A DNA stretch of 64,000 nucleotides from Octopus vulgaris (taxonomy: Eukaryota), in NCBI GenBank assembly GCA_951406725.2, contig OX597814.1, positions 65,286,001 through 65,350,000 on the forward strand, in the 5' to 3' direction. The position numbers and the translations under genes were made by a program. How positions within the stretch are numbered: position 1 is the first letter of the stretch; each line of letters begins with the position of its first letter. Positions 10,959 to 56,750 of this stretch are shown piece by piece. Under the pieces are notes generated by a model, which saw only the letters and a list, made by a program, of their open reading frames with translations, searched no databases and had not been told where the DNA came from.

Positions 10959-11170
10959 TTATTAAAAAGCGCCAAAAATATTTTTAAAAACCTACTCAGA
11001 GTTTCAGGTTCCCGTTCGTCGATCAGTTTTGTTTTCTAAACAAAATTGTCCGACGAACGAGAACGTGAAACGTTGTGTAACAGTTTATGTGATATTTTTG
11101 CTGCTTTTTAATAACCCTACCTCTAGTATTCGAGTACTATCTTTTCCACATTGTTTTGCATTTATGTGCT
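10959..11170. mobile_element. Inverted pair of Penelope-like terminal repeats with degenerate hammerhead motifs
   Basis: Arms 10959-11033 and 11038-11114 are inverted; plus arm AATTGT-CCGACGA-ACGAGAACGT-GAAAC-GTTGT-GTA-ACAGTT. Confidence 0.55.
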
Positions 11171-11929
11171 TCCTTTGATATATATATATATATATATATA
11201 TATATTGAGCCTCCTTAAACTAAGCTATGACTGTAACTACCCAGACGTTCATGACCTTAGTATATTTTGCCCCACCAGGTCACAAATGGGAAGACCACCC
11301 ACCATCACCTCGGCAATGAAGAAGAGTATCGTAGATCACTTGATTGGCTGGACCAAATCCACCCAAGACCCTGAAAAGAACAGTTAGATGAAAAGAATGC
11401 TTCCACATGCAATAGGGGTGGCATAAGAACCACATAGTTTAACAGGAAACCATACGCGCACGTTCAAGTTAGATTTGATGTCATCTCAAACAATACTGAT
11501 CAGCTGAGTGGTCAGATCACTAAAACTGCTGTAGGAGTCACTACTTCCAAGAGGTTTATTTCATCACAAATTCATATTTAAAATGTTTAATTAATACTAC
11601 ATCTAGTTTTGATGCATAGATTAGGGATAGGGCTAGAGTGTGGCCGGAAAATTTAAACAATCTCCAGTGGAACAATCTACAATTGCTTAGCTTCACTGTG
11701 AGTATGTAGGTGACATTAATATTCTAGTTAGGACAAATTGTAGTAACTGAACTGTAGAAACCGAGAGGAGCATAATGGAAAAACTTCCAGCGTGTAGCTT
11801 ACTCCATTCACAAAAGTGTCCTACACACCGACCTTAATACTGAACTTTGGTTACAATGAACAACAGAGTGCAGCTCATCCATTCCTATTACATGAAATCT
11901 ATAGCTTCTAAGTATGTTGTTCAACTTTG

Positions 11930-15609: not shown

Positions 15610-16030
15610 ACTTGTATTTCTTTCTTTCTTCCTATTTCAGTTCGACAGGGAAGACGTATTGTTCTCTGTCTCCTGTCCAGGCTTGTTTCTTCGCGTTCGC
15701 CACCACAACCTCGTTTAGGCCTAGCAGCCCTTCCTGTTTGATTTCACTGTCCTGTTTTTTGTTCCAATTTTGACCCTCTCCAAGATCGCAAATTTTATTA
15801 AATTTGCTTTGCGGGAGCAACTGTTTTATCGAAGGCGTATCTTGTCGTGAATTGCTCGAAATACGGATTAGAAAAACAGCCGACTAGCGATAAAGGGTCG
15901 TTCCCTGTGATGCTTGTCTTGCTTTCCATTTGATTCTTTCGTTGCTTGCAAAAAAAGCCCTTATTCCATGTCCTCGTACTTCGTATTATTTGTTGTTTAT
16001 GTTCTGTGACGTCCTATGCCCACATATGCA
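15610..16030 (+). mobile_element. Interspersed repeat family H2 (Penelope-like 3' region), related to 41093-41318 and 47690-48170
   Basis: Shared TTCCATTTGATTCTTTCGTTG...TGTTGTTTAYGTT...GACGTCCTRTRCCCA motifs. Confidence 0.55.
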
Positions 16031-17158: not shown

Positions 17159-17355
17159 ATTTATTATATAGAAGGAGCTTCTACAGGACTAGAACTGTTT
17201 CATTCAAGAGAAATCATCAGGCGCTTCCTGATGATTACTCTTGAATGAAACAGTTCTAGTCCTGTAGAAGCTCCTTCTATATAATAAATTATTTTTACTC
17301 TGCTATGTATTGAGTACCTTATTTACTGTGGTTAACCCCGAATCAACCCGGGACC

Positions 17356-17357
<2 letters not shown>
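17159..17357. mobile_element. Penelope-like terminal repeat with 131-bp near-perfect palindrome containing hammerhead cores
   Basis: Arms 17159-17221 and 17227-17289 differ at one base, 5-nt loop; plus arm GCTTC-CTGATGA-TTACTCTTGAAT-GAAAC-AGTTCTA-GTC-CTGTA-GAAGC; flanked by (TA)n. Confidence 0.7.
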
Positions 17358-17424
<67 letters not shown>

Positions 17425-20073: not shown

Positions 20074-21050
20074 GGTGGTGGTGGTGGTGGTGGTGGTGTA
20101 TGATAGGTAGTTTTTGTTAAGTTTTGAAAAACACTAGAGACTTTGGTGATGGTGTTTGCTGTTGGTAGCATTACTAGTTAGGTAATACTAACGACTTCTT
20201 GTATAACTGTTAGCCAATCTGATCATTATAAGTATCAGTGAAGGTGTTAGTTTCACTGTTTGTACATTCATTGTTGTTGTTGTTAATATTGTTGTTGCTG
20301 TTGTTGCTGGATGTGATGAAACTACTCGCGGTATTACTGGAGCAGATGGTGTTTCTGTTGGTGGTTTTGACGTCAATAGTGATGATGATGGATCCTGTTG
20401 AGGTTCTTTTTTTGTTGACGTTGTTTCTGTTGATGTTTTTGTTGTTGGGTGTGCTACTACTACTTGTAATATTATTGGAGTATATGGTGTTGCTTGTACC
20501 ACTGCTGGTGGTGGTGGTGGTGGTTCTGGTAGAAATGTGTGCTCTGCAGCTTCACTTAAATTAAAGAACTCATCCCCTACCACCTTAGTAGTTGGTGGAG
20601 AGTTTGTTTGGATAGTTCCGCTCAGAGAAAAGACAGGAAAAATAAAATATATGTGAACTTCGTTTTCCCTGACGTCAAATTTTACCCTTTTCAGTCTGTG
20701 ATTTTTTGTTTTTTTCTTTATTCCCTAATATTATTATTGTTGTTGTTGTTGTTCGTATCACAGTATCCTTTGTTAGACTATTCTACCAGCCTTTGTATTA
20801 CTGTTGTCTGTATTATTGACTTGTCGTTGTTGTTGATGTTGTTGTTGTTATCATCATCATCATGGTTATTATTGTGGTTGTCTTTTATTTTTGTTACTGT
20901 TTTGTGGAGAACTAACTGTTCCACCAGGTTTTATATGGAAAATATTATTGTTGTTGTTGTTGTTGTCAGTGGTGGTGGTGGTGGTGGTTGGCAAGGGTGT
21001 AGCTTGCATGAGATGTCAGTATCGGTAAAGAGACGTAGAAAATGACTCAT
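18232..21050 (-). pseudogene. Putative decayed intronless coding region, Thr/Pro/Asn-rich with RVxF motifs; unidentified
   Basis: Open frame 20724-20188 (GIKKKTKNHRLKRVKFDVRENEVHIY...PEPPPPPP...); can be extended to ATG 21050 through one frameshift and two CAR->TAR stops; repeats are almost all trinucleotide. Portion below 20188 has many stops and is weakly supported. Confidence 0.35.
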
Positions 21051-21254: not shown

Positions 21255-23415
21255 CTGTGTGCAACACTCAAAAAATTACAAGAGATCTGTGGCCATTTTT
21301 ATATGCAAAATGACATGGGAAATCCATTTCTGGCCTTTTTTTGCTGAATTTGGCATGGTTTCTACAGAATTGTCACTGTATACTCTTTTTGTCATTATTA
21401 TTAAATAAAATTCTCTACTGCATTGTAAAATGGGTTTAAACCTAGGGCTGGAGACCAATTTTAGTAACACCTGCAATGTGATTCAAAGCTTGTGTTTAAT
21501 GTTATTTTTTATCATTCAGATCTTATTTGTTTTCAACAATGTGTGCAAGACAGTGCAAAAACGATCCAAACAGATACTGTTATATCTGTGGGGAATTGAC
21601 TTTAGCTAAAGAAAAGCGCAGTATTACACGCCATGTCAAGAAAATAAACAAGGCATATTGCGATTATTACTTAGGAGACCAGGATAAGTCATGGGCTCCT
21701 CATGTGTGTTGTCTTACATGTGTGAAGGCATTGAGTACCTGGTATGCAGGAAAAAATGTTCACATGAAGTTTGGTGTGCCAATGATTTGGTGTGAGCAGA
21801 AAGATCACTCTAATGATTGATATTTGTCACCATGACTTTACAGGCTCTACTACAGCAAAGAAAAAAAAACACATTGTTTACCCAAATTTGCAAGCAGCAA
21901 TGCGCCCTGTAGAGCACTGAGAAAATTTACATGTGCCCAAATCTCCAGATCAAGAAATGCAGAGTTCCAGCAGTACTGATGAACATTCCAGTGGTGAATG
22001 TGTGGAGCCCCATGATCTAAAAAGCGAGAATAAAACAATACCATTTTTTCAAGAGGTTCTAAATGACTTATGCAGGTATCTCTATTTAACCAAAGACAAA
22101 AGTGAGTTTCTGGCATCAAGGCTTCAAGAACGTAAGCTTCTTGAGAAAGGAGTGAAAATAAAACTGTACAGAAAACGTAAAGAGGGTCTGATGAAGGATG
22201 ACTTATGCTTTTGTAATGACATCACTGAACCTTTTGAGCCACTGGAAATACCATATGATAAACCCAACTGGCGACTTTTCATAGATGCATCCAAGGACAG
22301 CATCAAAGTTGTTCTGCTACACAATGGTAGCACTGTGCCTTCTATTCTCATAGCTTATAGCACAGCTATGAGAGAATCATATGAAAATCTAAAAGCAATT
22401 CTAACAAGCATACGGTATGATGACCATACCTGGCATATTTGTGCAGATTTTAAGGTTGTAGCCATGCTTACTGGCCTTCAGCTTAACTATACTAAATTTT
22501 GCTGCTTCCCTGTGCTTAGGAATTCCAGAGCAAGAGCTGATTATGTACACAAGGATTGGGCGATCAAATATGAAATTGAGCAAAGTAAACACATCATGCA
22601 TAAACCACTTGTGAAAAGTGATAGAATTTGTTTACCACCTTTGCATATTAACTTGGTTTGTTTAAGCAATTTGTGAAAGCCTTTGACAAGGAATCCTCCG
22701 CATTTGCATATCTTGCAGAAAAGTTACCTTCCCTGAGTCAAGCTAAAATTAAAGAAGGTTTCTTCATAGGTCCCCAAATTCGAAAAGTTGTATTTGATGA
22801 AACCTTCATCACACATCTCAAGAGAAAAGAGAAGCTTGCCTTTGAGTTATTCAAGAAAGTTTGCGATAACTTCCTGGGCAACCATCGTTCAGAAGACTAT
22901 GTGCAAGTTGTGAATGATCTGCTGAGTCATTATCATGATATGGGATGTAACATGTCTCTAAAAGTTCATGTGCTTCACACTCATTTCGATTTTTTGCAGA
23001 AAATCTTGGTGATGTGAGTGATGAACATGGTGAAAGATCCCATCAGGATATTTCAGTGATGGAGCGACGATTCAAAGGAAAATGGAACCCTGGCATGTTA
23101 GCAGACTACTACTGGGGTATAAAAACAGAAGATCGCACTCCACACAAGAGGCTTAGAAGGACAAAAGTTGTTTAAACTGACAGATGTGTTTTTAAAATTT
23201 TTTGTTTTGTTTTCTGTAACTTTCAGTATTTGCAATGTTGTGTTCAGTACGCTATATTATGCAGTATATTATAAAAAATATGGTTCATGGTACGGGGAAA
23301 CGGTGCCTTATCTGGAGAAATAAAGGCCAGAATCAGAATCATGACAATAATTTGACCCAGAAACAAGTCTTACTTAACTTGTACTTTTTTTAAACCTGAA
23401 ATTTGTTGCACAGTG
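21255..23415 (+). mobile_element. Chapaev3-type (CMC) DNA transposon, near full length (2161 bp)
   Basis: Ends CTGTGTGCAACA / revcomp CACTGTGCAACA, flanked by TTA on both sides (3-bp TSD at 21252-21254 and 23416-23418); encodes the transposase below. Confidence 0.8.
21539..23175 (+). pseudogene. Chapaev3-type transposase, disrupted by stops and frameshifts
   Basis: Cys-rich N-terminus CKNDPNRYCYICGE...GDQDKSWAPHVCCLTC; WRLFIDAS, ICADFKV, PPLHINL, SLKVHVLH, DEHGERSHQDI, MLADYYW across four frames. Confidence 0.85.
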
Positions 23416-23570: not shown

Positions 23571-23751
23571 TATTGGTTTGAAATTTTGGCACAAGACCAG
23601 CAATTTCCGCGAGAGTATATGTCGACTGGTTCTTACTTTATCGACCTCGCAAAGATGAAAGTCGACCTCAACGAATTTGAACGCGGGACATAAAGACGGA
23701 CGAAATATCGCAAAGCATTTTACTCGGCGGGCTAACTGACAGATGGTCGCC
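23571..23751 (-). mobile_element. tRNA-derived SINE family B (degenerate)
   Basis: Inverted similarity to 23785-23999; same orientation as 43218-43448. Confidence 0.65.
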
Positions 23752-23784
23752 TTAAAAAATGACATTAATATTATATTGCATTTA

Positions 23785-23999
23785 GGGCAACGAGCTGGTA
23801 GAATATTTAGCACGCCGGACAACATGCTTAGTGGTATTTGTTCACTCATGACGTTCTTCTTTCAAATTTCACCGAGGATGCCTTTGCCTTTTATCCTTGT
23901 GGAGTCGATAAAATAAGTACCAATTGAGCAATGGTGTCGATGTAATTGACCTACGCACTCACTCGAACTTGCCGGCCTTGCGCCAAAATGTTGAAACCA
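23785..23999 (+). mobile_element. tRNA-derived SINE family B
   Basis: GGGCAACGAGCTGGTAGAAT...TTAGCACGCCGG...TTCAAATT...GTCGATAAAATAAGTACCA...GTCGATGTAATTGAC. Confidence 0.75.
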
Positions 24000-24831: not shown

Positions 24832-26086
24832 TTAGGTTGGCAACTAAGTTCCCACCGTTTTGATAATTTAAATTTTTTAAAAAGGTTTAATAAAAAAAAC
24901 AACTAATTAGTCAATAAAGTATTCGCCCTTGTTGTTTACTACTTCTTCCCAACGTTCAACAGGATTTTCAATACCTCGGTGGTAGAAATCACCCGATTTC
25001 GACTCGAAAAATTGATCTAACCAAGCTGTCATTTCTGCATCAGTATTGAACAAAGCTCCGCGCATAGCATTTGAAAGAGATCGAAAGAGGTGGAAATCTG
25101 CTGGTGCCAAATCAGGAGAGTACGGCGGTTGTGGCAGCACTCTCCAGCCATACGATTGAATGTCTTGCTTGGTCATGTTGGCGATATGACGGCGGGAGTT
25201 GTCGCGCTGCAAAAGAACTCCATGCTGCCGAATAGGTCTTTTCTCTTGAATAGTCGTGTAGAATAGTTCCATCTGTTGGTTCCGTTCAAGCAATTCGTAA
25301 TGGATAATCCCTTTTCAGTTCCACCATACGCACAACATCGTTTTATGCGGATGAAGATCTTTCACGCGCGGTGTTGCTTGTTTACCGGGGCTAAGCCATT
25401 CTTTACGCTGCTTCATATTGATGTAGAGGCACGATTTTTCGTCGTCAGTAGCGATTCGGTAAAGAAATTGTTGCTTGTGTCCATGAGTTGAGTGGTGACG
25501 AGCAAGCGAACTAGCAGAGATTGTGGCTTGTTGATTTTTGTTGTTGTCACTTAAAGCATGCGGAACCCGTGCTCCATACTTCTGAACCTTTCCCATCGGG
25601 TGAAGATGCTTCTCTATAGCAATGTGGGAGCATTCTATTGTCTCTGCCAGTTCCATTGTCGTTTGACGAGAATTTTCGTGCAAAAGTTGGTTTAATCGCC
25701 CTTCATCGAACTCAACTGGACGACCAGAACGAGGCAAGTTTTTGAGGTCAAAACTTCCATTTTTGAACATGGCATACCAATCACGAGCGGTTCTTTCAGC
25801 TATGGCACCCTCTTCATACACAGCACAAATGTCACGAGCAGCTTTTGTGGCCTTAGAGCCTTGATTAAAAGCAAGAAGAAGAAGGAGTCAAAAATGCTCG
25901 TTTTTCTTGACATTCCATTTTAATGACCTGAAAAATAAAATTAACTAAAATTAACTAAAAAAAAAAAGACCAAAGATTCCAAAATAATTCAAAAATAGAA
26001 TTCTTGAAAAATTAGATTCCGAAATTTAAATCGCAATAAATTCCAAAATTTAAAGGAACGGCGGGAACTTAATTGTGCCAACCCAA
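24832..26086 (-). mobile_element. Full-length mariner transposon (1255 bp) with TA TSD
   Basis: TIRs TTAGGTTGGCAACTAAGTTCCCACCGTT / TTGGGTTGGCACAATTAAGTTCCCGCCGTT; TA at 24830-24831 and 26087-26088. Confidence 0.93.
24907..25918 (-). pseudogene. Mariner (DD34D-type) transposase pseudogene
   Basis: HTH (WYAMFKNGSFDLKNLPRSGRP), RVPHAL, IATDDEK, MLCVWW, QRDNSRRH, YSPDLAPADFHLF; frameshifts and stops. Confidence 0.92.
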
Positions 26087-28949: not shown

Positions 28950-29927
28950 AGGATGATAGGTGGGAACAAAATCTTCTGCATTGCAAATATGTGGTCCGTA
29001 GCAAACAAGCTGATGTAGACCAGAAGCACACCCATCAGTGGTTACGGAGCTCAGGATTAAATGCAGAGAGTGAAAGCTTTAGCTTTGCTACCCAAGATAA
29101 GCGCTGATTGACCTATCAAGTCAATGTGATGACAAGTGGTGTAGACCCAAATCGTCAATACTACAACGATCGGATAGAAACAGTGGACCACCTAATTTCT
29201 GGATGTAAGCTTTTAGCACCTATTGAGTAGAAATCAAGTCATGACAGAGATGGCCAATATCTACAATGGATAATGTGACAGCATTATAAAATCAAAATTG
29301 CTGACAAATGGTACGAGCACCAGCCAGTGGCTGTAACGGTGAGAGAAAATGTAACTATTCGTTTGGACTTCCCAGTATGTACAAACCGGACCATCAAAGC
29401 AAATAAACCAGATATTGTTGTGAAAGACCATAACAGTAAAATCTGTTTCTTGATTGACATGAGCATACCCTGTGACCATAATATCTCGGCAAACAAATTT
29501 GATAAGCTCAGAAAGTATAATGATTTGCTAATCAAAATCGAAAGATGTGGCATCTCAAGACGGTTACAATACAAGTGATTGTAATAGCAGTTGGAATGAT
29601 CAAAAAAGGAACTGAAAATTATTTAAGAAGGGTCCCTGGCTTACCATCCATGCAGGAAATGCAAAAGATTGTCTTCACTGCTAAGTCACACGTTCTGAGA
29701 AGAGCTTTGTAGCTGTCCATTTTTTCCCCGCTTTCTTTTCTTTGTTTAATTTTTTATTCTTTATTTTTTTCTGTTTCTTTGTCTTTCTTCCCATTTTTCT
29801 GTAAATGAACAATCTGGTGTGTTTATTTTAATAGCCTGCCAATATATACAGAACATTTCTCTGCCCTAGGTGTCAGGAGGCCACTCGGCAAGAAGCGGAA
29901 ACAAAATTGAAAGAAGATGCTAATGTG
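28950..29927 (+). mobile_element. R4/Dong-clade RLE non-LTR retrotransposon, 3' fragment
   Basis: HQWLRSSGLNAESESFSFATQD, ETVDHLISGC (zinc knuckle), SHD (RHD), KPDIVVKD...LIDMSIP...K..KY (PD-(D/E)XK endonuclease), stop 29710-29712, 3'UTR then (AAT)n. Confidence 0.85.
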
Positions 29928-41092: not shown

Positions 41093-41318
41093 ATATGGAT
41101 ACAGGACGTCATTAAACGTAAACAACACGAAATAAGAGAACATTTCGAGAAATGTGGAGTAGATGAAGAACACCCGACAACAGATGAAGGGTTGTTCTTT
41201 ATATTACATGTCTTGTTTTCCATTTGATTCTTTCGTTGTTCGCAAAAAAATTTCGTATTCCATGTTTTCGTATTTCGTATTTTATGTTGTTTACGTTTTA
41301 TAACATCGTGTACCCATA
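41093..41318. mobile_element. Repeat family H2 copy with inverted termini, inserted in (TA)n
   Basis: TATGGATACAGGACGTCATTAAACGTAAACAACA ... TGTTGTTTACGTTTTATAACATCGTGTACCCATA. Confidence 0.6.
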
Positions 41319-43963: not shown

Positions 43964-45189
43964 CTACATATGCACATCATATTCATTCACTACTTCCTTT
44001 TTGAAGTTGAATCTACTCGTATATCTACGATGACAAGTCTCATCCACTACATCTTTAATAAGTTTAGCTTTCGGCTCCCAAGAAATGCATGACGTTCCCA
44101 TTCTTGTCGCTTGTTTTGTGAGTAGACTATCGGTGATCGTTTCGGCCTTCAACCTATTAGTGAACTTTGTCTTTGTGCAATTTATTTGGGGAAATATGCG
44201 CTCCACGCACGCTGATGAATGAGGTAACAACGTTAAGTTAGTCATGAGTTGTGACAGCCTTTCAAATTTAGAGAAATCAAGCCAGTTTTGGAGATTGCGT
44301 ATGGAATACCGGAATTCAGGGATACTTTTTGAGGAAACAGGAATATCTTTATATTTCCGAAATAATCTGCATTCAGCGTCTAGTTCATCAAGTGTGTTTT
44401 CTGGTGCAATTGCTGGAAAGTTTGAAGCCAAGGGAATTATCGAGTGAAGAGAGTTAGTGAGATCGCGCGCTACTTTTGGATCAAGTATTTCTAAGAGGGC
44501 CAACACACCAGCTTCATCATTTTTAAGTGAGCGCATAATTTTATTAAAAAAAGTTTTGCAATCAGTTTTGAATCACCAACAAGCTGAGTCACCAGCGATG
44601 AGGTTTTGTTCTAGATATCTCATTGCGCGTCCATCGAGGTAAATATCACTCATATCTTTGTGATTTGTTGTGTTACTAAGATCGATATTTGATAATTTAG
44701 ATAAAGCTAAAACATCCTCTTTTATAAAACAACTAAGGATACTTTTATATTCACTGGGTAAGAGTGTATGCAACAGATGCAGTCGAAAGTGTTCCGATTG
44801 AAACTCGATATTAAGAACATTTACTTTCTTTAATATATAATGTAAGAAGAGCAGAATGTGCTTCGTCCCTTTGTTAATCATTGCTTCAGAGATTCTTTTT
44901 GCTCCGTCCACTTTTCTACTTTAGCCTCATACTGAAAATAAAGTACAAGGGTATCTCACTGTTCTATTATGACGTTGATTACATTTTCACCATTTTCTAC
45001 TACAATTGTATCCAGAAGAGCACCCTTGACATTAAGCGATTGTTCATAAAAGAAAAAAAAACGAAGAACTATTGCTAAGATTTGTGTCACTGAGATGTCC
45101 ATACTCTAATCTCTCAATACTGAAAACTCTTGTTTCTTGAGAATTTCCAAGATTTCATTTCGTTCATAATGTGCAAGTAAGTTTTGCAT
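43964..45189 (-). pseudogene. hAT-family transposase remnant
   Basis: LKKQEFSVLRD*SMDISVTQILAIVLR (first catalytic D region), LNIEFQSE, LDP, and C-terminal dimerisation motif LLPHSSACVERIFPQINCTKTKFTNRL. Possible GTAAGT..TTTCAG intron at 43931-43822 downstream. TIRs not identified. Confidence 0.85.
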
Positions 45190-47603: not shown

Positions 47604-47651
<48 letters not shown>

Positions 47652-47689
47652 CTTCATTCTTTCTGGCTTCCTCACAACCATTCCCCTTT

Positions 47690-48170
47690 TTTTGTCTCCC
47701 TTTTTCTTGCTCCTAATCCTCCCTCCCGTCGTTGACCCGCGACGAGAGCTCTGCTACTGTCTTTCTGACCTGGCTTCCTTGAAGTGTTGACGGCATTTTC
47801 TGTTGCTCCTTCTCGTTCGGCTTAACAGCCCTTCTTGTCTTGTTATTCTCCTACTCATGTCTTTTACTGTCGTTACTGTCCTGTTTTTGTTACCATTTTT
47901 AACCCTCCGCAAAAAGATCTCAAATTTTATTTAATTTGCTTTTCGCGGGAAGGAAAGTTTCAAATGAAGATGCGTATCGCCTTCACCTTCGAAACGCAGA
48001 GTATATGAAACCATGGCGACTGAAGAAGGGGAATTTTCCTTGTGTTATTTGTCCTGTACTCTACTTTCCGTTGTTTAAGAAAAATGTCCAGTTCCTTGGT
48101 TTTGTGCTTATGTTTTCGTTTCTCATTGTGTTCGGAGGTTTTTTGTTTTTGGTGTCCTGTACCCATATAT
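47690..48170 (+). mobile_element. Repeat family H2 relative with degenerate hammerhead at 47957-48011
   Basis: GTTTCA-A-ATGAAGA-...-GAAAC-GCAGA-GTA-TA-TGAAAC (stem I GTTTCA/TGAAAC; C3 mutated); ends GTCCTGTACCCATA. Confidence 0.5.
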
Positions 48171-48265
48171 GCTTGTATATATACATGTAGAGGTAGGTAC
48201 GTACATATATGTATGTATATATGCATATGTTTTATTTATTAATTTATTATATATATATATATTTA

Positions 48266-49012
48266 CCAACTAAATGTGGCTGTGCCATAGAGGACGACGT
48301 TACTGTTGCTTTTAGCCCCAGGAAGACAACATGTCCAGCTCGCTAACAACACACTGTGTGCATCCGATTAGCATTTGCGAGAGGATGTCATCATTCCCAT
48401 CTCTCTAGCCTTACGTGAAATACACAGACCTGTGTATCTGGGTTGTTACCCGTCTTCAGTGTGTGATAATCACCAGCAAGTGATGAAAACTCATTTCACT
48501 GGCAGAATGCTATATCTTTTTTCCAACGACAAACTGTCGCTGATCTCGAAATAGGAGAAATAAGCTATACTAAATCTCTGAGCGAGAGGTAAACAGTAAA
48601 CGGTACGGAATAGTAAAATATCTTTGACAACTAAATGAGATTTAATGTAGCTTACTTCTTCTTTTAGGAGATGAGCGACAGTTTGTTGCTGAAAAAAAAA
48701 TGACATAGTAGTTTGCGAGTGGAATGAGGTTTTATCATTAGCTGATGATTATCACACACTGAAGACGGGTAACTACGCTGAAACGCGGATCTGCGTGCAT
48801 CAAGTAAGTCTAGAGAACAGAGCGATGAACTCCCCTCGCAAATACTAATTGGACACAGACAGTGTGTCTTTGGCCAACTGGAGGAGATGTCTTCCTGGTA
48901 CTTAAAACTATAACAGCATCGTCCTCTGTGGTATCGTCACGTTTAGTTGGCGAATGTATTTTACGATTCCATACTTTTACTGTTTACCATTCGCTCAGAT
49001 ATTTAATATAGC
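48266..49012. mobile_element. Inverted pair of circularly permuted 361-bp monomers carrying a hammerhead-like core (retrozyme/PLE-like)
   Basis: Left monomer (minus) has CAACTAAAT at 48267 and 48628; right monomer (plus) has GAKATTTAATRTAGC at 48637 and 48998; both periods are 361. Core CTGAAGA-CGGGTAACTACGCT-GAAAC-GCGGATCTGC-GTG at 48759-48797. Confidence 0.7.
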
Positions 49013-49185
49013 GTGGGTATATATAGCGAACAACGAGACAAACAAATGGAAAACAAGTCAAGTAACAAAAACGATCTTTCATAAGTTGTCGGCTGTCCAT
49101 CTACTCCTCTTTTCAAGCAATTAACGACAACTGTATGTATGTATGTATGTATGTATGTATGTATGTATGTATGTATGTATGTATG

Positions 49186-50141: not shown

Positions 50142-51295
50142 TATATAAAAAGTTCATGTAAAAAGAAAATTCTATTCATATAAACAAGATAGTTTTTGAT
50201 TTTGGAAATGAAAAGAGATGTCTTACAGGAAGAGCAGCGCAAAACAATAATAAAATTAATAAATAATGCTTCCATTTGATAATTAAACATCTCATAGTTG
50301 TACATCTTATTAAAAGGTGCTTGACCTTAAGTATCCCACAGTTAATATTGTCTTTAATACAAAACCAGCTTAATTGCATATGTATAAAATTATTCAGAAG
50401 TAGAGGAATTGAGCTGAAGTGTGAGAACTAATTAAGACATTGTTACAGGCTAAAATGTAAACAACAGATGGAATTTCTTAGATGTGATCGTTTCCTAAAT
50501 GACATTAATACAAAGAAAAACTGTCAGTTGTAATGTGAACAAACTGTAGTAATTTTCTCTAAAGCTGATGATGAAATTTAATTTTACTATAACGTAAGCA
50601 AAATGTTTAAGTAACATAGAAGCATATGTTTTGATAATCCTAGTTCACGTCTCGCATTAGATTCACATTTAACACAATTTCATTTTTACTTTGCTACTCA
50701 AGTAGCGATTATGGAATCCTAATTTCACTAAATATACAACGTTAATGCCAACGCTTTGAAAAACTAGCTTTGACACATTCGGAAAATACAGGTGAGTCAC
50801 CGAAGCATTTGGCTACAGTAAAGTTTATGACTATATTTTGTGAGTTCTATTTAAGTTAATTTGGAATCAGTTCCTTCTAATTATAACTTTGATAAGTACA
50901 TACACTGTTTTGGGAAAAAATAAAGTATTAACACAGTTTTGTTGAGAAAGGATTATTTAATGGGAAAATATCAAAATTAATTGGTAATGTCGCATATACA
51001 GGGAAAAATACATATCTCTCTTAGTGGGAGGAAGAAGATCAAAGCAGGAAAGAGAAAGAGGATGTTAAGGAAATAACAGTGAACCAGACCAACGAGTTCC
51101 TACATAACTTGAATATATATGTCATGCCGCATTTTACAGTTGCATACCGAAGTGAAATTTCCACTTATTCTTTCCAGGACCAATTATTCAAAAGCGCAAT
51201 GTAGGAACATCCGTCATTGCAGCATAATTTGTTGGAGTCTCGGACTACATACCCCACTTACTGGTTTTCCCTAAATTTCTTTGAATTCCAATATT

Positions 51296-51801
51296 TAATT
51301 AGATGCAGATATGCATCGTTAACCAGATAGAGGAGATGTCCTCTTGGGGGTTAAAAAATCGCATTAAATCCGTTCGAATGGACAGTAATGTTGAAGTGTC
51401 TACGAACATTACTTGTTAGTACAATTGCTGCGTTGATCTCTTACATTTTAGAACTAGCATTTTTGCTAGATGCAAAATCAGCGACTGTAAGTCGCTTGAA
51501 ATTATAAATATTGCCATCTCTAGCAGACGAGATTTCCAGTACTGAAGAGAGACAGAAGTAGCCGAAAACCAGGTTGGTCAGCTGGACCTGTCACTAGAAG
51601 GTGGTAGTGGTTCCCTCCCTTGTTAGCAATATCTCGGATGCCGCTTAGCATTGTTGACAAGCTAGAGGAGATGTCCTCTTGGGGTTAAAAATCGCAGTAC
51701 ACTCTAATCTAACAGACAGCTATGCTGAAGTAGCTATGAACATTACTTGATAGTACAACTACTGCGTTGATCTCTTAGAGATTTTAGAAATAGCATTTTT
51801 G
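51296..51801 (+). mobile_element. ~1.5 tandem copies of a 335-bp unit with a degenerate hammerhead (51536-51585)
   Basis: TAGAGGAGATGTCCTCTTGGGG at 51328 and 51663; CCAGT-A-CTGAAGA-GAGACAGAAGTAGCC-GAAAA-CCAGGTTGG-TC-AGCTGG. Confidence 0.6.
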
Positions 51802-51994
51802 TTTGTTGAAAAACTTAAAAAGTTCTTTGGTGTGATGGTATGAGTACATTCATGTAATACCGCTTCTATCACTAATATATATGTATATATGTGTGTGTGT
51901 GTGTGTGTGCGTGAGTGGTTGTGTGTGTCTGTATGTATCTATGTATGTATGCATGTATGTATGTATTATGTATGTGTGTGTATATGTATGTATG

Positions 51995-52242: not shown

Positions 52243-52950
52243 GGTGTGCCAAAAGTCACTGATGCGTTTAAAGTTTTAATAACTTTTAATAACTGTACAA
52301 ATAAATACATGAAATTTTGATACAATATAAAGGACATTAAAAATGAATATGCACTAGTCAAATGTTGCAACAGCACTATATCGTATATGAAAAGTAACAT
52401 CACTTAAATAGCAGCTATTTTCGCCTGCGCACGCCCATGTTCTTTCCTAACCTTGCACCATGACACCCTCAAGAGTTTCAGACTCTGCTCCTCTGATTTC
52501 CCTATTGATGCTCTCTTTCAGTTGCACCTGGATCTCCGCTTTGTTGATGTAAACCCTCTCTTTCATGTATCTCAAGAAAATGCCCGGGCTAGTCAAGTTT
52601 GGGGAACGTGAAGACCATTCAATGTAGACTTCACACAGGGTTCCAGCAAAATGGTACAACAGCTCATACCGCAAGAAAAACAATGCACTTGCTACGGCAG
52701 TGCTTTGGAGAGAGAATAATGACCCGCTACGGCAGTGTCAACTGGCAACTAAAGGAGAACATCAATAGAGAAATCAGAGAGGTGGGGTCTGAATCTCTTG
52801 AGGGTGTTATGGTGCAAGTTTTGGAAAGAGCATGGGCGTGCGTAGCCGAAAGTAGTTGCTATTTAAGAGATGTTATTTTTCATATGTTCAGTAGTAATGA
52901 TATTGTTGATAGTACAATGATCCTGCAGGAACACTTTCAGGTATCCACTG
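52240..52950. mobile_element. Tc1/mariner-superfamily derivative (CAGGGTG terminus, WPPRSPDL-type transposase) with two inverted 3' ends
   Basis: TA|CAGGGTGTGCCAAAAGTCAC; minus WSSRSPNLTSPGIFLRYMKERVY; plus FQQNGTTAHTA...NW|QLKENINREI; arms 52402-52524 and 52745-52866 are inverted. Confidence 0.75.
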
Positions 52951-54455: not shown

Positions 54456-54647
54456 CTGACTTCGGACAGTGGTCAGACGCGAGACACTATATATATATAT
54501 ATATATAGTGATAGAAAAGATAAGACAGCAAAAGAATGAAAGAGACCTCGATATTATCTAAATAGACAAATTTATCTGTAAATGTAATATGTGACAATAA
54601 AACTCCGAGTTTCGGTCGTCGGGGTGGAAATCCACGCTGCCATGGCG

Positions 54648-54708
54648 GATAACTGAAGAGATGGTGGTGTGGATTTCCACCCCGACGACCGAAACTCAGA
54701 GTTTTATC
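54648..54708 (+). ncRNA. Type I hammerhead ribozyme within an inverted Penelope-like terminal repeat (54577-54744)
   Basis: GATAA-CTGAAGA-[GAT GGT.GT.GTGGA/TCCAC..AC.ACC]-GAAA-CTCAGAG-TT-TTATC; stem I GATAA/TTATC, stem III CTC/GAG, GUU site; antisense copy at 54599-54635. Confidence 0.7.
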
Positions 54709-54740
54709 ATGGCTACCGAATAATTATCACATATTATATT

Positions 54741-54794
<54 letters not shown>

Positions 54795-55395: not shown

Positions 55396-56239
55396 TATGA
55401 AGAGAGAGAGAGAGAGGGAAGGAGATGGAGATGAGAGGGAGAGAAAGGGAGAGAGCGGAATATAAAATTAAATGATAAACCTATAAAAAAAAGGTGCAGA
55501 CGTTATAAAGAAGTATGTATAATAAACATGAGATAATTGGATAAATACAATTATACTTGGAAATATGAACTTAGTGTTTGCTGTAGTTGTTTAGTTCTAG
55601 GTCAAAATTTCTTGAACACACCTAAGGCCTGTGTCACTCAGTTGTGACAGCTAATCTGATTTTTTATATATATATCTTTCCTTTGCTCCACAACATCTTG
55701 TGCATACTTTTCCTTTGAGGATAGTAGTGTATCATTTGATATTAATGTGGTTCTTTTCAGTGGGACGCGCAAATATGTAGACGTTCTTTAGTTGACTTGA
55801 ATGCACTCAAGTATTCGTGCGTATGTGTGTGCCTGTGTAAGTGCACATATTGTGTGAAGTAACAGTCAATTTGCTCCTAAACTCTCAATGTAGAAGCACT
55901 CCATTAGTAAATATTCCAATATTCTGCAAGTTAATTTAGATAATAACCTTATTTAAACATCTGGGAATCGTGTGTGATAGTGCATATATACATACATACA
56001 TATGTATATATATATATATACATATATATAGATTGGTGGATGGATGCATGCATATAGGTACACATACACACGCGCGCACATACATACATCCACAGACCTA
56101 AACGCATGCACACCCACATACACTCATATATGTATATATACATACATATGGTTTGTCACATTCAATTAGTATATGTGCACGATATTAAGTTTGAGAGAAC
56201 CCTCGGTAGTACTCACGTAAGTAGATCAATGCATTAATG

Positions 56240-56750
56240 TACTTCTGATGGGTGAATTCAACTTTCCAAATATCAGATGTCCAGATGGTGATATAATCAC
56301 AGAAATGACATGCAAAGAGCGATGTCAAACAGAATCTCCGATTCATCTCACGAAAATGGTGTTTATTGAGCTCTCTCCAACCAGAAACGATAACATCTCA
56401 GGATTCTACTTCCCCAACAATGTGGAAATTATCCACAATGTGAAGATATCACCGGTAATCTGCTCAGACCAAAACATTTCAGTACTGACAATGTATGGTC
56501 CAAAACTAGTTAAAGATGTATTTCCCACAGATGACACCCAAAGCCAGTCCAGTCTCAACTTCTACAAGGCTAACTGGAATTCAATTGAAACATCTCCAGC
56601 ACAATTGGCTTAAAAGTTTCTCTATATATGACATTAATAAGAAGCATAAATTCATGTCAATAATGCGAGTCACATGTGTTATATTGGTCCCAGAAAAAGA
56701 GCTATTCCCGAGACAGGAGAGTTCTTATGAGACGAAGGTTTAAGATCTCT
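56240..56750 (+). mobile_element. CR1-like LINE ORF2 remnant, end of APE endonuclease and linker
   Basis: MGEFNFPNI (GDFN), PTRNDNI...FPNN, SDQN (SDH), LNFYKANW. Confidence 0.75.

What the first reader, a model, noticed from the sequence alone, without database searches (positions are those of the whole stretch)
48266..49012. Two differently circularly permuted 361-bp hammerhead-bearing monomers joined in inverted orientation (retrozyme-like)
Seen: 48266-48578 and 48637-48950 are diverged inverted arms, and the spacer 48579-48636 is the reverse complement of the sequence beyond the right arm (48941-48999). Each half is therefore one full monomer plus a short terminal overlap (CAACTAAAT at 48267/48628; GAKATTTAATRTAGC at 48637/48998), both with period 361 but different start points. 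Each carries CTGAAGA-stem II-GA(A/T)AC-palindromic stem III-GT(A/G); stem III covaries (ACAG/CTGT vs GCGG/CTGC). Established: animal non-LTR retrozymes and Penelope terminal repeats are short HHR-containing units, and retrozymes pass through circular RNAs. Inference: different permutations point to reverse transcription from a circular or multimeric RNA. Both copies have core mutations and I could not demonstrate stem I.
Basis: partly seen in the sequence, partly recalled or inferred. Interest (0 to 1): 0.8.

Follow-up and report, generated by a model that had tools for sequence, protein, structure and literature searches.

The report
Decayed retrozyme inserted Penelope-style, head-to-head
Two worn-out copies of a 361-base jumping repeat that carries a self-cutting hammerhead RNA sit back to back in the way Penelope-type retroelements normally insert, so this is a known kind of parasite RNA repeat whose insertion scar supports, but does not prove, the idea that Penelope enzymes copy such repeats from RNA circles.

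Summary
The anatomy is real. A minus-strand copy (48636→48257/66) and a plus-strand copy (48637→49012) are joined at their 5' ends. Each is one 361-nt unit plus a 10-20 nt overlap, and they are 276/358 identical. Contigs from three studies span the junction.

The unit is a high-copy, non-coding family; other copies run colinearly across the unit closure. Both local copies are damaged.

The two permutations are not random. The layout (head-to-head, one arm 53-62 nt longer, TA-rich target) is the known Penelope insertion form, and three other hammerhead-like palindromes in this window show it (tails 63, 65, 70 nt). A second copy ends at the same base as the right arm.

Verdict: a non-LTR retrozyme mobilised by Penelope-type two-site priming from a more-than-unit RNA. 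Circle versus linear multimer is unresolved. Both arms stopping 15-20 nt past their own start hints at one round on a circle (about 25%). Cleavage, circles and expression are not shown. New member of a known kind.

The parts
48257..48636 (-). Left copy (short arm): one 361-nt unit plus 10-20 nt. 5' end at 48636 (unit position about 304); 3' end between 48266 and 48257, where the element's own AT-rich bases merge into the TA-rich flank
   Evidence: (D15)
48637..49012 (+). Right copy (long arm): one unit (48637-48997) plus 15 nt; 3' end at unit position 15
   Evidence: same end point in another copy, table 7 (48564, X9)
48960..49012 (+). One-sided extension ('tail'), 53 nt, or up to 62 nt if the left 3' end is put at 48266
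48579..48636 (-). Spacer = extra 5' part of the left copy, homologous to 48941-48998
48630..48646 (.). Junction hairpin: both arms start at or 3 nt before the same 7-mer, which occurs at unit positions 4 and 304 (7 bp in the left-copy register, 5 bp left in the window); 1-nt microhomology at 48637
   Evidence: 170 of 122,740 random pairs of truncation points more than 10 nt apart give >=7 bp
48412..48473 (-). Type I hammerhead of the left copy: core 48459-48453, stem II 4 of 4, stem III 2 of 2, cut site after 48427, stem I 5 of 6; core A14 mutated (48436)
48745..48804 (+). Type I hammerhead of the right copy: core 48759-48765, cut site after 48791, stem I 5 of 6, stem II 3 of 4, stem III 1 of 2 (48789 mutated)
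48841..48896 (+). Block with the most family contig depth (unit positions 205-260), also shared with the sister family at 51.3 kb; candidate cis-element (inferred)
   Evidence: table 2
48225..48256 (.). AT-rich / (TA)n left flank, the likely target
49013..49027 (.). Right flank: 5 nt, then a short (TA)n run; no target-site duplication seen
51289..51814 (+). Sister-family copy: direct tandem of about 1.5 units, period about 335, hammerhead core at 51542 with stem I 5 of 6; 3' end within about 7-20 nt of the same unit column
   Evidence: nhmmer E 3.3e-13; score 238 vs shuffles 131+-9, max 159 of 100

Best explanation
This is an old, decayed insertion of a high-copy non-autonomous retrozyme (361-nt non-coding unit with a type I hammerhead), made by a Penelope-like RT/GIY-YIG enzyme acting in trans. 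The enzyme nicked both strands of a TA-rich site. Each end primed reverse transcription inside the RNA, at two neighbouring start sites 53-62 nt apart (unit positions 314-323 and 15). The template was longer than one unit (uncut multimer or ligated circle), so each cDNA ran through an intact ribozyme and a little past its own start. The two 5'-truncated cDNA ends were then joined head-to-head. Shown: anatomy, high copy number, closed unit, ribozyme fold of the family, shared layout with neighbouring palindromes. Inferred: Penelope enzyme, two-site priming, one event, RNA template form. Not shown: cleavage, circles, transcription.
For: 1539, 1070 and 828 contigs of X1, X3 and X5 lie on the 826-nt stretch at >=80%. 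Pieces from other copies run colinearly across the 361/1 closure (e.g. X1 records 1-5, X3 10-14, X5 17-22), and 20 of the 24 listed loose ends (of 778) simply continue the unit (read by eye). At 36 of 40 listed sites (of 249) where one arm departs from the family majority, the other arm has the majority letter, i.e. independent decay. With four majority letters applied to the left ribozyme, all pairs form: stem I 6/6 plus 5/5 distal, II 4/4, III 2/2, core and GUC intact; stem I pairing probability goes from 0.01 to 0.58. A subfamily has a palindromic 4-nt loop 3 (loose ends at 48437: 21 contigs in X1, 18 in X3), as described for animal type I hammerheads (PMC4209133). Three other hammerhead-like head-to-head palindromes in (TA)n have one-sided tails of 63, 70 and 65 nt. 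Inverted 5'-truncated copy, tail and microsatellite bias are Penelope hallmarks (PMC8557442; PMC3846280). A purified Penelope-type protein cuts and extends both strands, starts internally at two adjacent sites that define the tail, and uses mainly uncut RNA (PMC11167929). No RT or GIY-YIG Pfam hit in 27 frames tested, 22 of them from 45-53.5 kb.
Against: The tail (53-62 nt) is longer than the published 30-40 bp. No autonomous partner was found, and no genome was available to look for one. The fixed 3' end rests on one extra copy (2 contigs) plus the approximate sister-family end. Family majority keeps an unpaired C and A on either side of stem II (48779: A in 97% of X1 depth), which departs from the canonical core, so activity is uncertain. 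No Rfam hammerhead hit for either locus. The two monomers do not fold better than shuffles as circles (z -0.05 and -0.75). 3 of 40 listed sites are shared by both arms against the majority, all beside indels; they neither prove nor exclude a single event.
Confidence: 0.75

Rival explanations
1. Same element and enzyme, but specifically two circular RNA monomers as templates: each RT went once round its own circle and stalled 15-20 nt after meeting its own start. This is a sub-case of the best explanation and the reader's idea in a sharper form.
For: Each arm passes the other arm's stop point and ends just past its own start site (unit+15 and unit+10-20). Both stops fall on the same 7-mer, which only 0.14% of random truncation pairs would give. 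Neither copy begins or ends at the ribozyme cut site (position 155). Retrozyme circles of 350-390 nt are shown in mussel (PMC7229834).
Against: The sister copy is about 1.5 units, not unit+20. Three listed joints in other copies look like head-to-head junctions at other positions (252|69, 41|243, 342|199), though each has only 24-28 letters on the short side and is weak. Stalling at a protein-bound motif, or repair guided by the repeated 7-mer, on a linear multimer gives the same picture. The locus was picked for this very feature. Uncut linear RNA was the main substrate in vitro (PMC11167929).
Confidence: 0.25
2. A head-to-tail dimer inserted first and the palindrome arose later at DNA level (inversion with a small deletion), or two copies inserted independently next to each other.
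For: The structure equals a tandem of about 2.2 units with the first part inverted and about 40-50 nt lost (geometry). The arms differ by 23%. The region is dense in repeats.
Against: Both outer ends are 3' ends abutting TA-rich DNA. The same short-arm/tail layout recurs in three unrelated families in 64 kb. There is no host DNA between the arms.
Confidence: 0.12
3. Ordinary pseudo-LTRs or a one-off gutted copy of an autonomous Penelope element, not a self-standing retrozyme family.
For: Insertion layout is Penelope-like. Contig depth is 5-8 times higher on two blocks (positions 205-260 and 352-18) than on the ribozyme, which could come from a parent sharing only those parts. An earlier report of this scan reached such a verdict for another locus (e1-7814458).
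Against: Many other copies are colinear across the closure and along the rest of the unit. None of the 24 listed loose ends shows a dominant exit into other sequence. The ribozyme has the canonical 6-bp helix I and 4-bp helix II rather than the minimal Penelope form (PMC4209133). A sister family has the same closed, tandem form. No coding remnant.
Confidence: 0.08

Closest known systems
Metazoan non-LTR retrozymes (Cervera and de la Pena 2020, PMC7229834; Li, Clavereau, Pollet 2026, bioRxiv 10.64898/2026.07.22.740005)
   Same: Non-coding unit in the 150-450 bp range (mussel 350-390), GC under 50% (41-43%), one type I hammerhead per unit, no LTR/PBS/PPT layout seen, high copy number, more-than-unit and tandem copies, co-existing with Penelope-type hammerhead repeats.
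   Different: Here two just-over-unit copies are head-to-head with a tail and no TSD; the parts of those papers I read describe monomers and head-to-tail arrays only. Self-cleavage and circles are not shown here, and the local ribozymes are mutated.
Endonuclease-bearing Penelope-like elements, inverted pLTR plus tail insertions (PMC8557442, PMC3846280, PMC11167929)
   Same: Head-to-head inverted 5'-truncated copy, one-sided tail, small palindrome at the inverted junction, AT-rich/(TA)n target, internal 3' ends downstream of an uncut hammerhead.
   Different: No ORF; the unit closes on itself after 361 nt; tail 53-62 nt rather than 30-40; canonical rather than minimal hammerhead.
Non-autonomous Chlamys-type PLE derivatives such as MRC1 (PMC8557442, passage)
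   Same: Non-coding PLE-dependent elements that form pLTR-like and multicopy insertions.
   Different: Those are in green algae and mostly lack canonical hammerheads; they are described as head-to-tail.
L1 twin-priming 5' inversion (recalled, no call)
   Same: Both target strands prime on RNA and the two cDNA ends join head-to-head.
   Different: No poly(A), no TSD, both priming sites internal, and the two arms duplicate the same sequence.

Membership tests
Metazoan non-LTR retrozyme | Short non-coding unit of 150-450 bp, low GC | tested here: met
   361 nt, GC 0.41-0.43; no Pfam hit in the six frames of >=45 aa that lie mainly inside it
Metazoan non-LTR retrozyme | One type I hammerhead per unit (helix I 6 bp, II 4 bp, short III with small loop) | tested here: met
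   Family-majority letters give 6/6, 4/4, 2/2 pairs and an intact core with GUC; local copies each have one core or stem III lesion
Metazoan non-LTR retrozyme | Many copies; unit closed on itself (tandem or more-than-unit copies) | tested here: met
   1539/1070/828 contigs; colinear pieces across the closure; sister family 1.5-mer. Full dimers with two ribozymes were not seen; contigs are too short
Metazoan non-LTR retrozyme | Self-cleavage of the RNA | not testable with these tools
   Needs in vitro assay; the unpaired C and A flanking stem II make it uncertain
Metazoan non-LTR retrozyme | Expressed as monomeric circular RNA | not testable with these tools
   Only contigs were served, no raw RNA reads
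Metazoan non-LTR retrozyme | Highly self-paired circular monomer | tested here: inconclusive
   z -0.05 and -0.75 for the decayed copies, -3.09 for the sister unit, 60 shuffles each
Rfam hammerhead families | Covariance-model match | tested here: not met
   No hammerhead hit at E<=10 on 48250-49040 or 51280-51830
Autonomous Penelope-like element | RT plus GIY-YIG ORF between pseudo-LTRs | tested here: not met
   No such Pfam hit in 27 frames (22 of the 98 frames listed for 45-53.5 kb); the unit closes after 361 nt
Penelope-type insertion form | Inverted 5'-truncated copy joined head-to-head | tested here: met
Penelope-type insertion form | One-sided tail of 30-40 bp | tested here: inconclusive
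   Tail present but 53-62 nt; neighbours 63, 65, 70 nt
Penelope-type insertion form | AT-rich or microsatellite target | tested here: met
   TA runs at both outer ends; another copy exits into a microsatellite at the same end. The window is microsatellite-rich, so this test is weak
Penelope-type insertion form | Fixed internal 3' ends across copies | tested here: inconclusive
   One exact repeat of position 15 (X9, 2 contigs) and one approximate (51801-51814); no genome-wide count

The most novel reading that the evidence does not exclude
The locus is a fossil record of a Penelope RT dimer copying two circular retrozyme RNAs once round each, stalling 10-20 nt after meeting its own primer. A genome-wide spike of copies at unit+10-20 nt would be direct genomic evidence that circRNA, not linear multimer, is the retrotransposition template, and that Penelope enzymes move retrozymes.
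Probability: 0.25. Interest if true: 0.65.

Novelty: new member of a known kind. Interest (0 to 1): 0.36.

Why it matters
That Penelope enzymes mobilise animal retrozymes is proposed from shared ribozymes, co-occurrence and pLTR phylogeny (PMC7229834 discussion; bioRxiv 2026.07.22.740005), and the latter says the mechanism remains to be worked out. An insertion scar of the Penelope type on a closed non-coding unit is a different, structural line of support. With over a thousand contigs' worth of copies, end-mapping in one assembly can test both the two-start-site model and circle versus multimer. I found no paper describing head-to-head retrozyme insertions with a tail (searches; open-access library only; supplements not seen). 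Opposite-strand hammerhead pairs 100-700 bp apart are already noted for Schistosoma PLE remnants (PMC4209133). The locus itself is a dead repeat with no sign of host function.

Tried and rejected
Rfam on the whole window returned only microsatellite-driven miRNA-like noise among the 150 of 406 rows shown; on the two loci, no hammerhead. Pattern scans: 0 matches in metagenome and viral contigs for a ribozyme-region pattern; 2 matches for a conserved-block pattern, both the same 50-52% GC context matching only over the 26-nt pattern region, rejected as chance. No RNA holder listed for the stretch; this says nothing on expression. One run guessed to be RNA (X9) had 84 family-like contigs, none 99% or more alike to this locus; DNA can be in it, so it is not used as evidence of transcription. 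Contig depth was not used as copy number or to map ends; table 6 listed no pile-ups. The 'opposite strand' joints were set aside as colinear hops between the two arms of the reference; the 5c joints could not be oriented. My strict descriptor scan missed both local ribozymes and found 5 other sites against 0-3 in 20 shuffles. One printed line (difference count between the two corrected ribozymes) was out of register and is ignored; the right ribozyme still folded poorly after five majority letters because only 40 of 249 sites were listed. A single fold-back of one cDNA was considered: it cannot make both arms longer than a unit with these registers without a second template, and leaves only 1 nt of priming homology. 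Earlier findings: nothing by sequence, by place or by the first word search. PMC5785218 was not held. Two other short-range inverted matches were not aligned for tails (23627-23922 printed only; 52385-52885 not examined).

Full report
1. Observation. The window is 31-39% GC and full of microsatellites. It looks like an octopus-type genome, from recalled repeat sequences; no call established the organism. BLAST of 48200-49100 against the window gives the inverted match 48257-48959 (72%, E 3e-105) and the spacer match 48564-48635 with 49012-48942 (83%, E 4e-15). In the ribozyme sense, the left copy reads from 48636 leftwards and the right copy from 48637 rightwards, so the 5' ends are joined. 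Rotated to one register both units are 361 nt and 276 of 358 columns agree; 50 of 82 differences are transitions and 16 are CpG-type. The left overlap is 10 nt exact and 20 nt at 85%; the right is 13 of 15. Single contigs span the junction in three runs of three studies, one under a second species label (records 6, 15, 21), so the join is real.

2. Family. Laying contigs at 80% likeness put 1539 (of 23.6 million) contigs of X1, 1070 (of 40.6 million read, about 80% of the run) of X3, 828 (of 14.2 million) of X5 and 84 (of 6.6 million) of X9 on 826 bases, most under 90% alike. Pieces from other copies run without a break from unit position about 341 through the closure to 180-221, and from 112 to 291. 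20 of the 24 listed loose ends (of 778) continue the unit, one exits into a microsatellite, and three are short or unclear. So the closed 361-nt unit is a high-copy family and not a one-off deletion product. At 36 of the 40 listed sites (of 249) where one arm departs from the majority, the other arm has the majority letter. Three are shared by both arms, all next to indels, and one has a third letter. Both arms have decayed from a near-consensus source. A sister family lies 2.3 kb away: 51289-51814, a direct tandem of about 1.5 units with period about 335 and its own hammerhead core at 51542 (nhmmer E 3.3e-13). No RT or GIY-YIG domain was found in 27 frames tested, 22 of them from 45-53.5 kb.

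3. Ribozyme. Majority letters repair exactly the lesions: 48436 (97% of X1 depth), 48421 (94%), 48419 (98%), 48789 (76%), 48794 (85%). With four such letters the left ribozyme forms stem I 6/6 plus a distal 5/5 after an internal loop, stem II 4/4 and stem III 2/2, and stem I probability rises from 0.01 to 0.58. A subfamily has a palindromic tetraloop on stem III (table 7). This matches the canonical animal type I description, helix I 6 bp, II 4 bp, III 1-2 bp with a small palindromic loop, which works as a dimer (PMC4209133, parts 1-2 of 4 read). Against: an unpaired C and A flank stem II in the majority, Rfam gives no hit, and the local monomers fold no better than shuffles as circles (z -0.05, -0.75; sister unit -3.09).

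4. Why two permutations. The outer ends are 3' ends: unit position 314-323 on the left, merging into (TA)n, and position 15 on the right, so the right arm has a 53-62 nt extension. Three other hammerhead-like head-to-head palindromes in the window have the same build, each with a short arm ending in (TA)n and a one-sided tail before (TA)n: 10959-11177 (63 nt), 17160-17358 (70 nt) and 54508-54748 (65 nt). Two further inverted matches were not tested. Another family copy leaves the element at position 15 into a microsatellite (2 contigs of X9), and the sister copy ends within about 7-20 nt of that column. The literature gives this as the Penelope form: an inverted 5'-truncated copy, a 30-40 bp tail and microsatellite bias (PMC8557442, passages), and palindromes at head-to-head junctions (PMC3846280, passages). 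A purified Penelope-type protein cuts and extends both strands, starts inside the RNA at two adjacent sites that bound the tail, and mainly uses uncut RNA (PMC11167929, parts 1-2 of 4). The start points therefore differ because of two fixed priming sites plus 5' truncation, not because of random entry into a circle.

5. What remains odd. Each arm is one unit plus only 10-20 nt. Both stop at the same 7-mer, present at positions 4 and 304; 170 of 122,740 random truncation pairs would give such a junction hairpin. Each cDNA passed the other's stop and ended just past its own start, which is what one round on a circle would give. But the sister copy is 1.5 units, three weakly supported head-to-head joints in other copies lie elsewhere (15 of 89 joints listed), motif-guided stalling or repair on a linear multimer would look the same, and the locus was chosen for this feature. 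I put the circle reading at about 0.25.

6. Comparison. It works like, and meets the testable features of, a metazoan non-LTR retrozyme: mussel units are 350-390 bp and form circles (PMC7229834, parts 2-4 of 6; PMC7761336, passages). Penelope dependence is already proposed from co-occurrence and pLTR phylogeny (bioRxiv 10.64898/2026.07.22.740005, parts 1-3 of 5). Octopus vulgaris has many Penelope-like families, with no mention of ribozymes in the main text (PMC13282606, passages); this bears only if the recalled host is right. Seven searches showed no description of head-to-head, tailed retrozyme insertions; other hits were seen as listings only, and no supplements were read, which may list such families. 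It is not an autonomous Penelope element.

7. Verdict. Real feature, ribozyme re-parsed, known kind of element in a known insertion form. The combination is a useful structural clue to how retrozymes move and is testable with one genome alignment. Expression, cleavage and circles are untested. Interest 0.36; 0.65 if the one-round circle signature holds genome-wide.

Noticed in passing
window 51289-51814 (+): Sister retrozyme-like family: 1.5 tandem units, period about 335, hammerhead core at 51542; its unit folds better than shuffles as a circle (z -3.09).
   Followed up: partly
window 17160-17358: Near-perfect young head-to-head palindrome (61 of 62) of a hammerhead-like end with a 70-nt tail, inside (TA)n.
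   Followed up: partly
window 10959-11177 and 54508-54748: Two more hammerhead-like head-to-head palindromes in (TA)n with tails of 63 and 65 nt; in the second, as in the finding, the spacer belongs to the tail-less arm.
   Followed up: partly
window 10162, 17560, 52108, 54375 (all minus): Four copies of a repeat with a minimal, Penelope-type hammerhead motif, all with mutated cores.
   Followed up: no
window 47640-48165 (+) and 49026-49130 (-); related copies 15746-16022, 41149-41316: Both flanks of the finding belong to another repeat group whose ends point toward the palindrome; hammerhead-like words at 47965-48040.
   Followed up: no
window 24907-25887 (-), 43964-44920 (-), 21500-23017 (+): Broken DNA-transposon frames: mariner-type (Pfam HTH_48 and Transposase_1), weak hAT dimerisation hit, and an unassigned transposase-like set of frames.
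   Followed up: no
window 29279-29578 (+), 56221-56613 (+): Frames that resemble LINE endonuclease fragments by recall; no Pfam hit.
   Followed up: no
window 20188-20724 (-): 178-aa Thr/Pro-rich frame, possibly a host exon.
   Followed up: no
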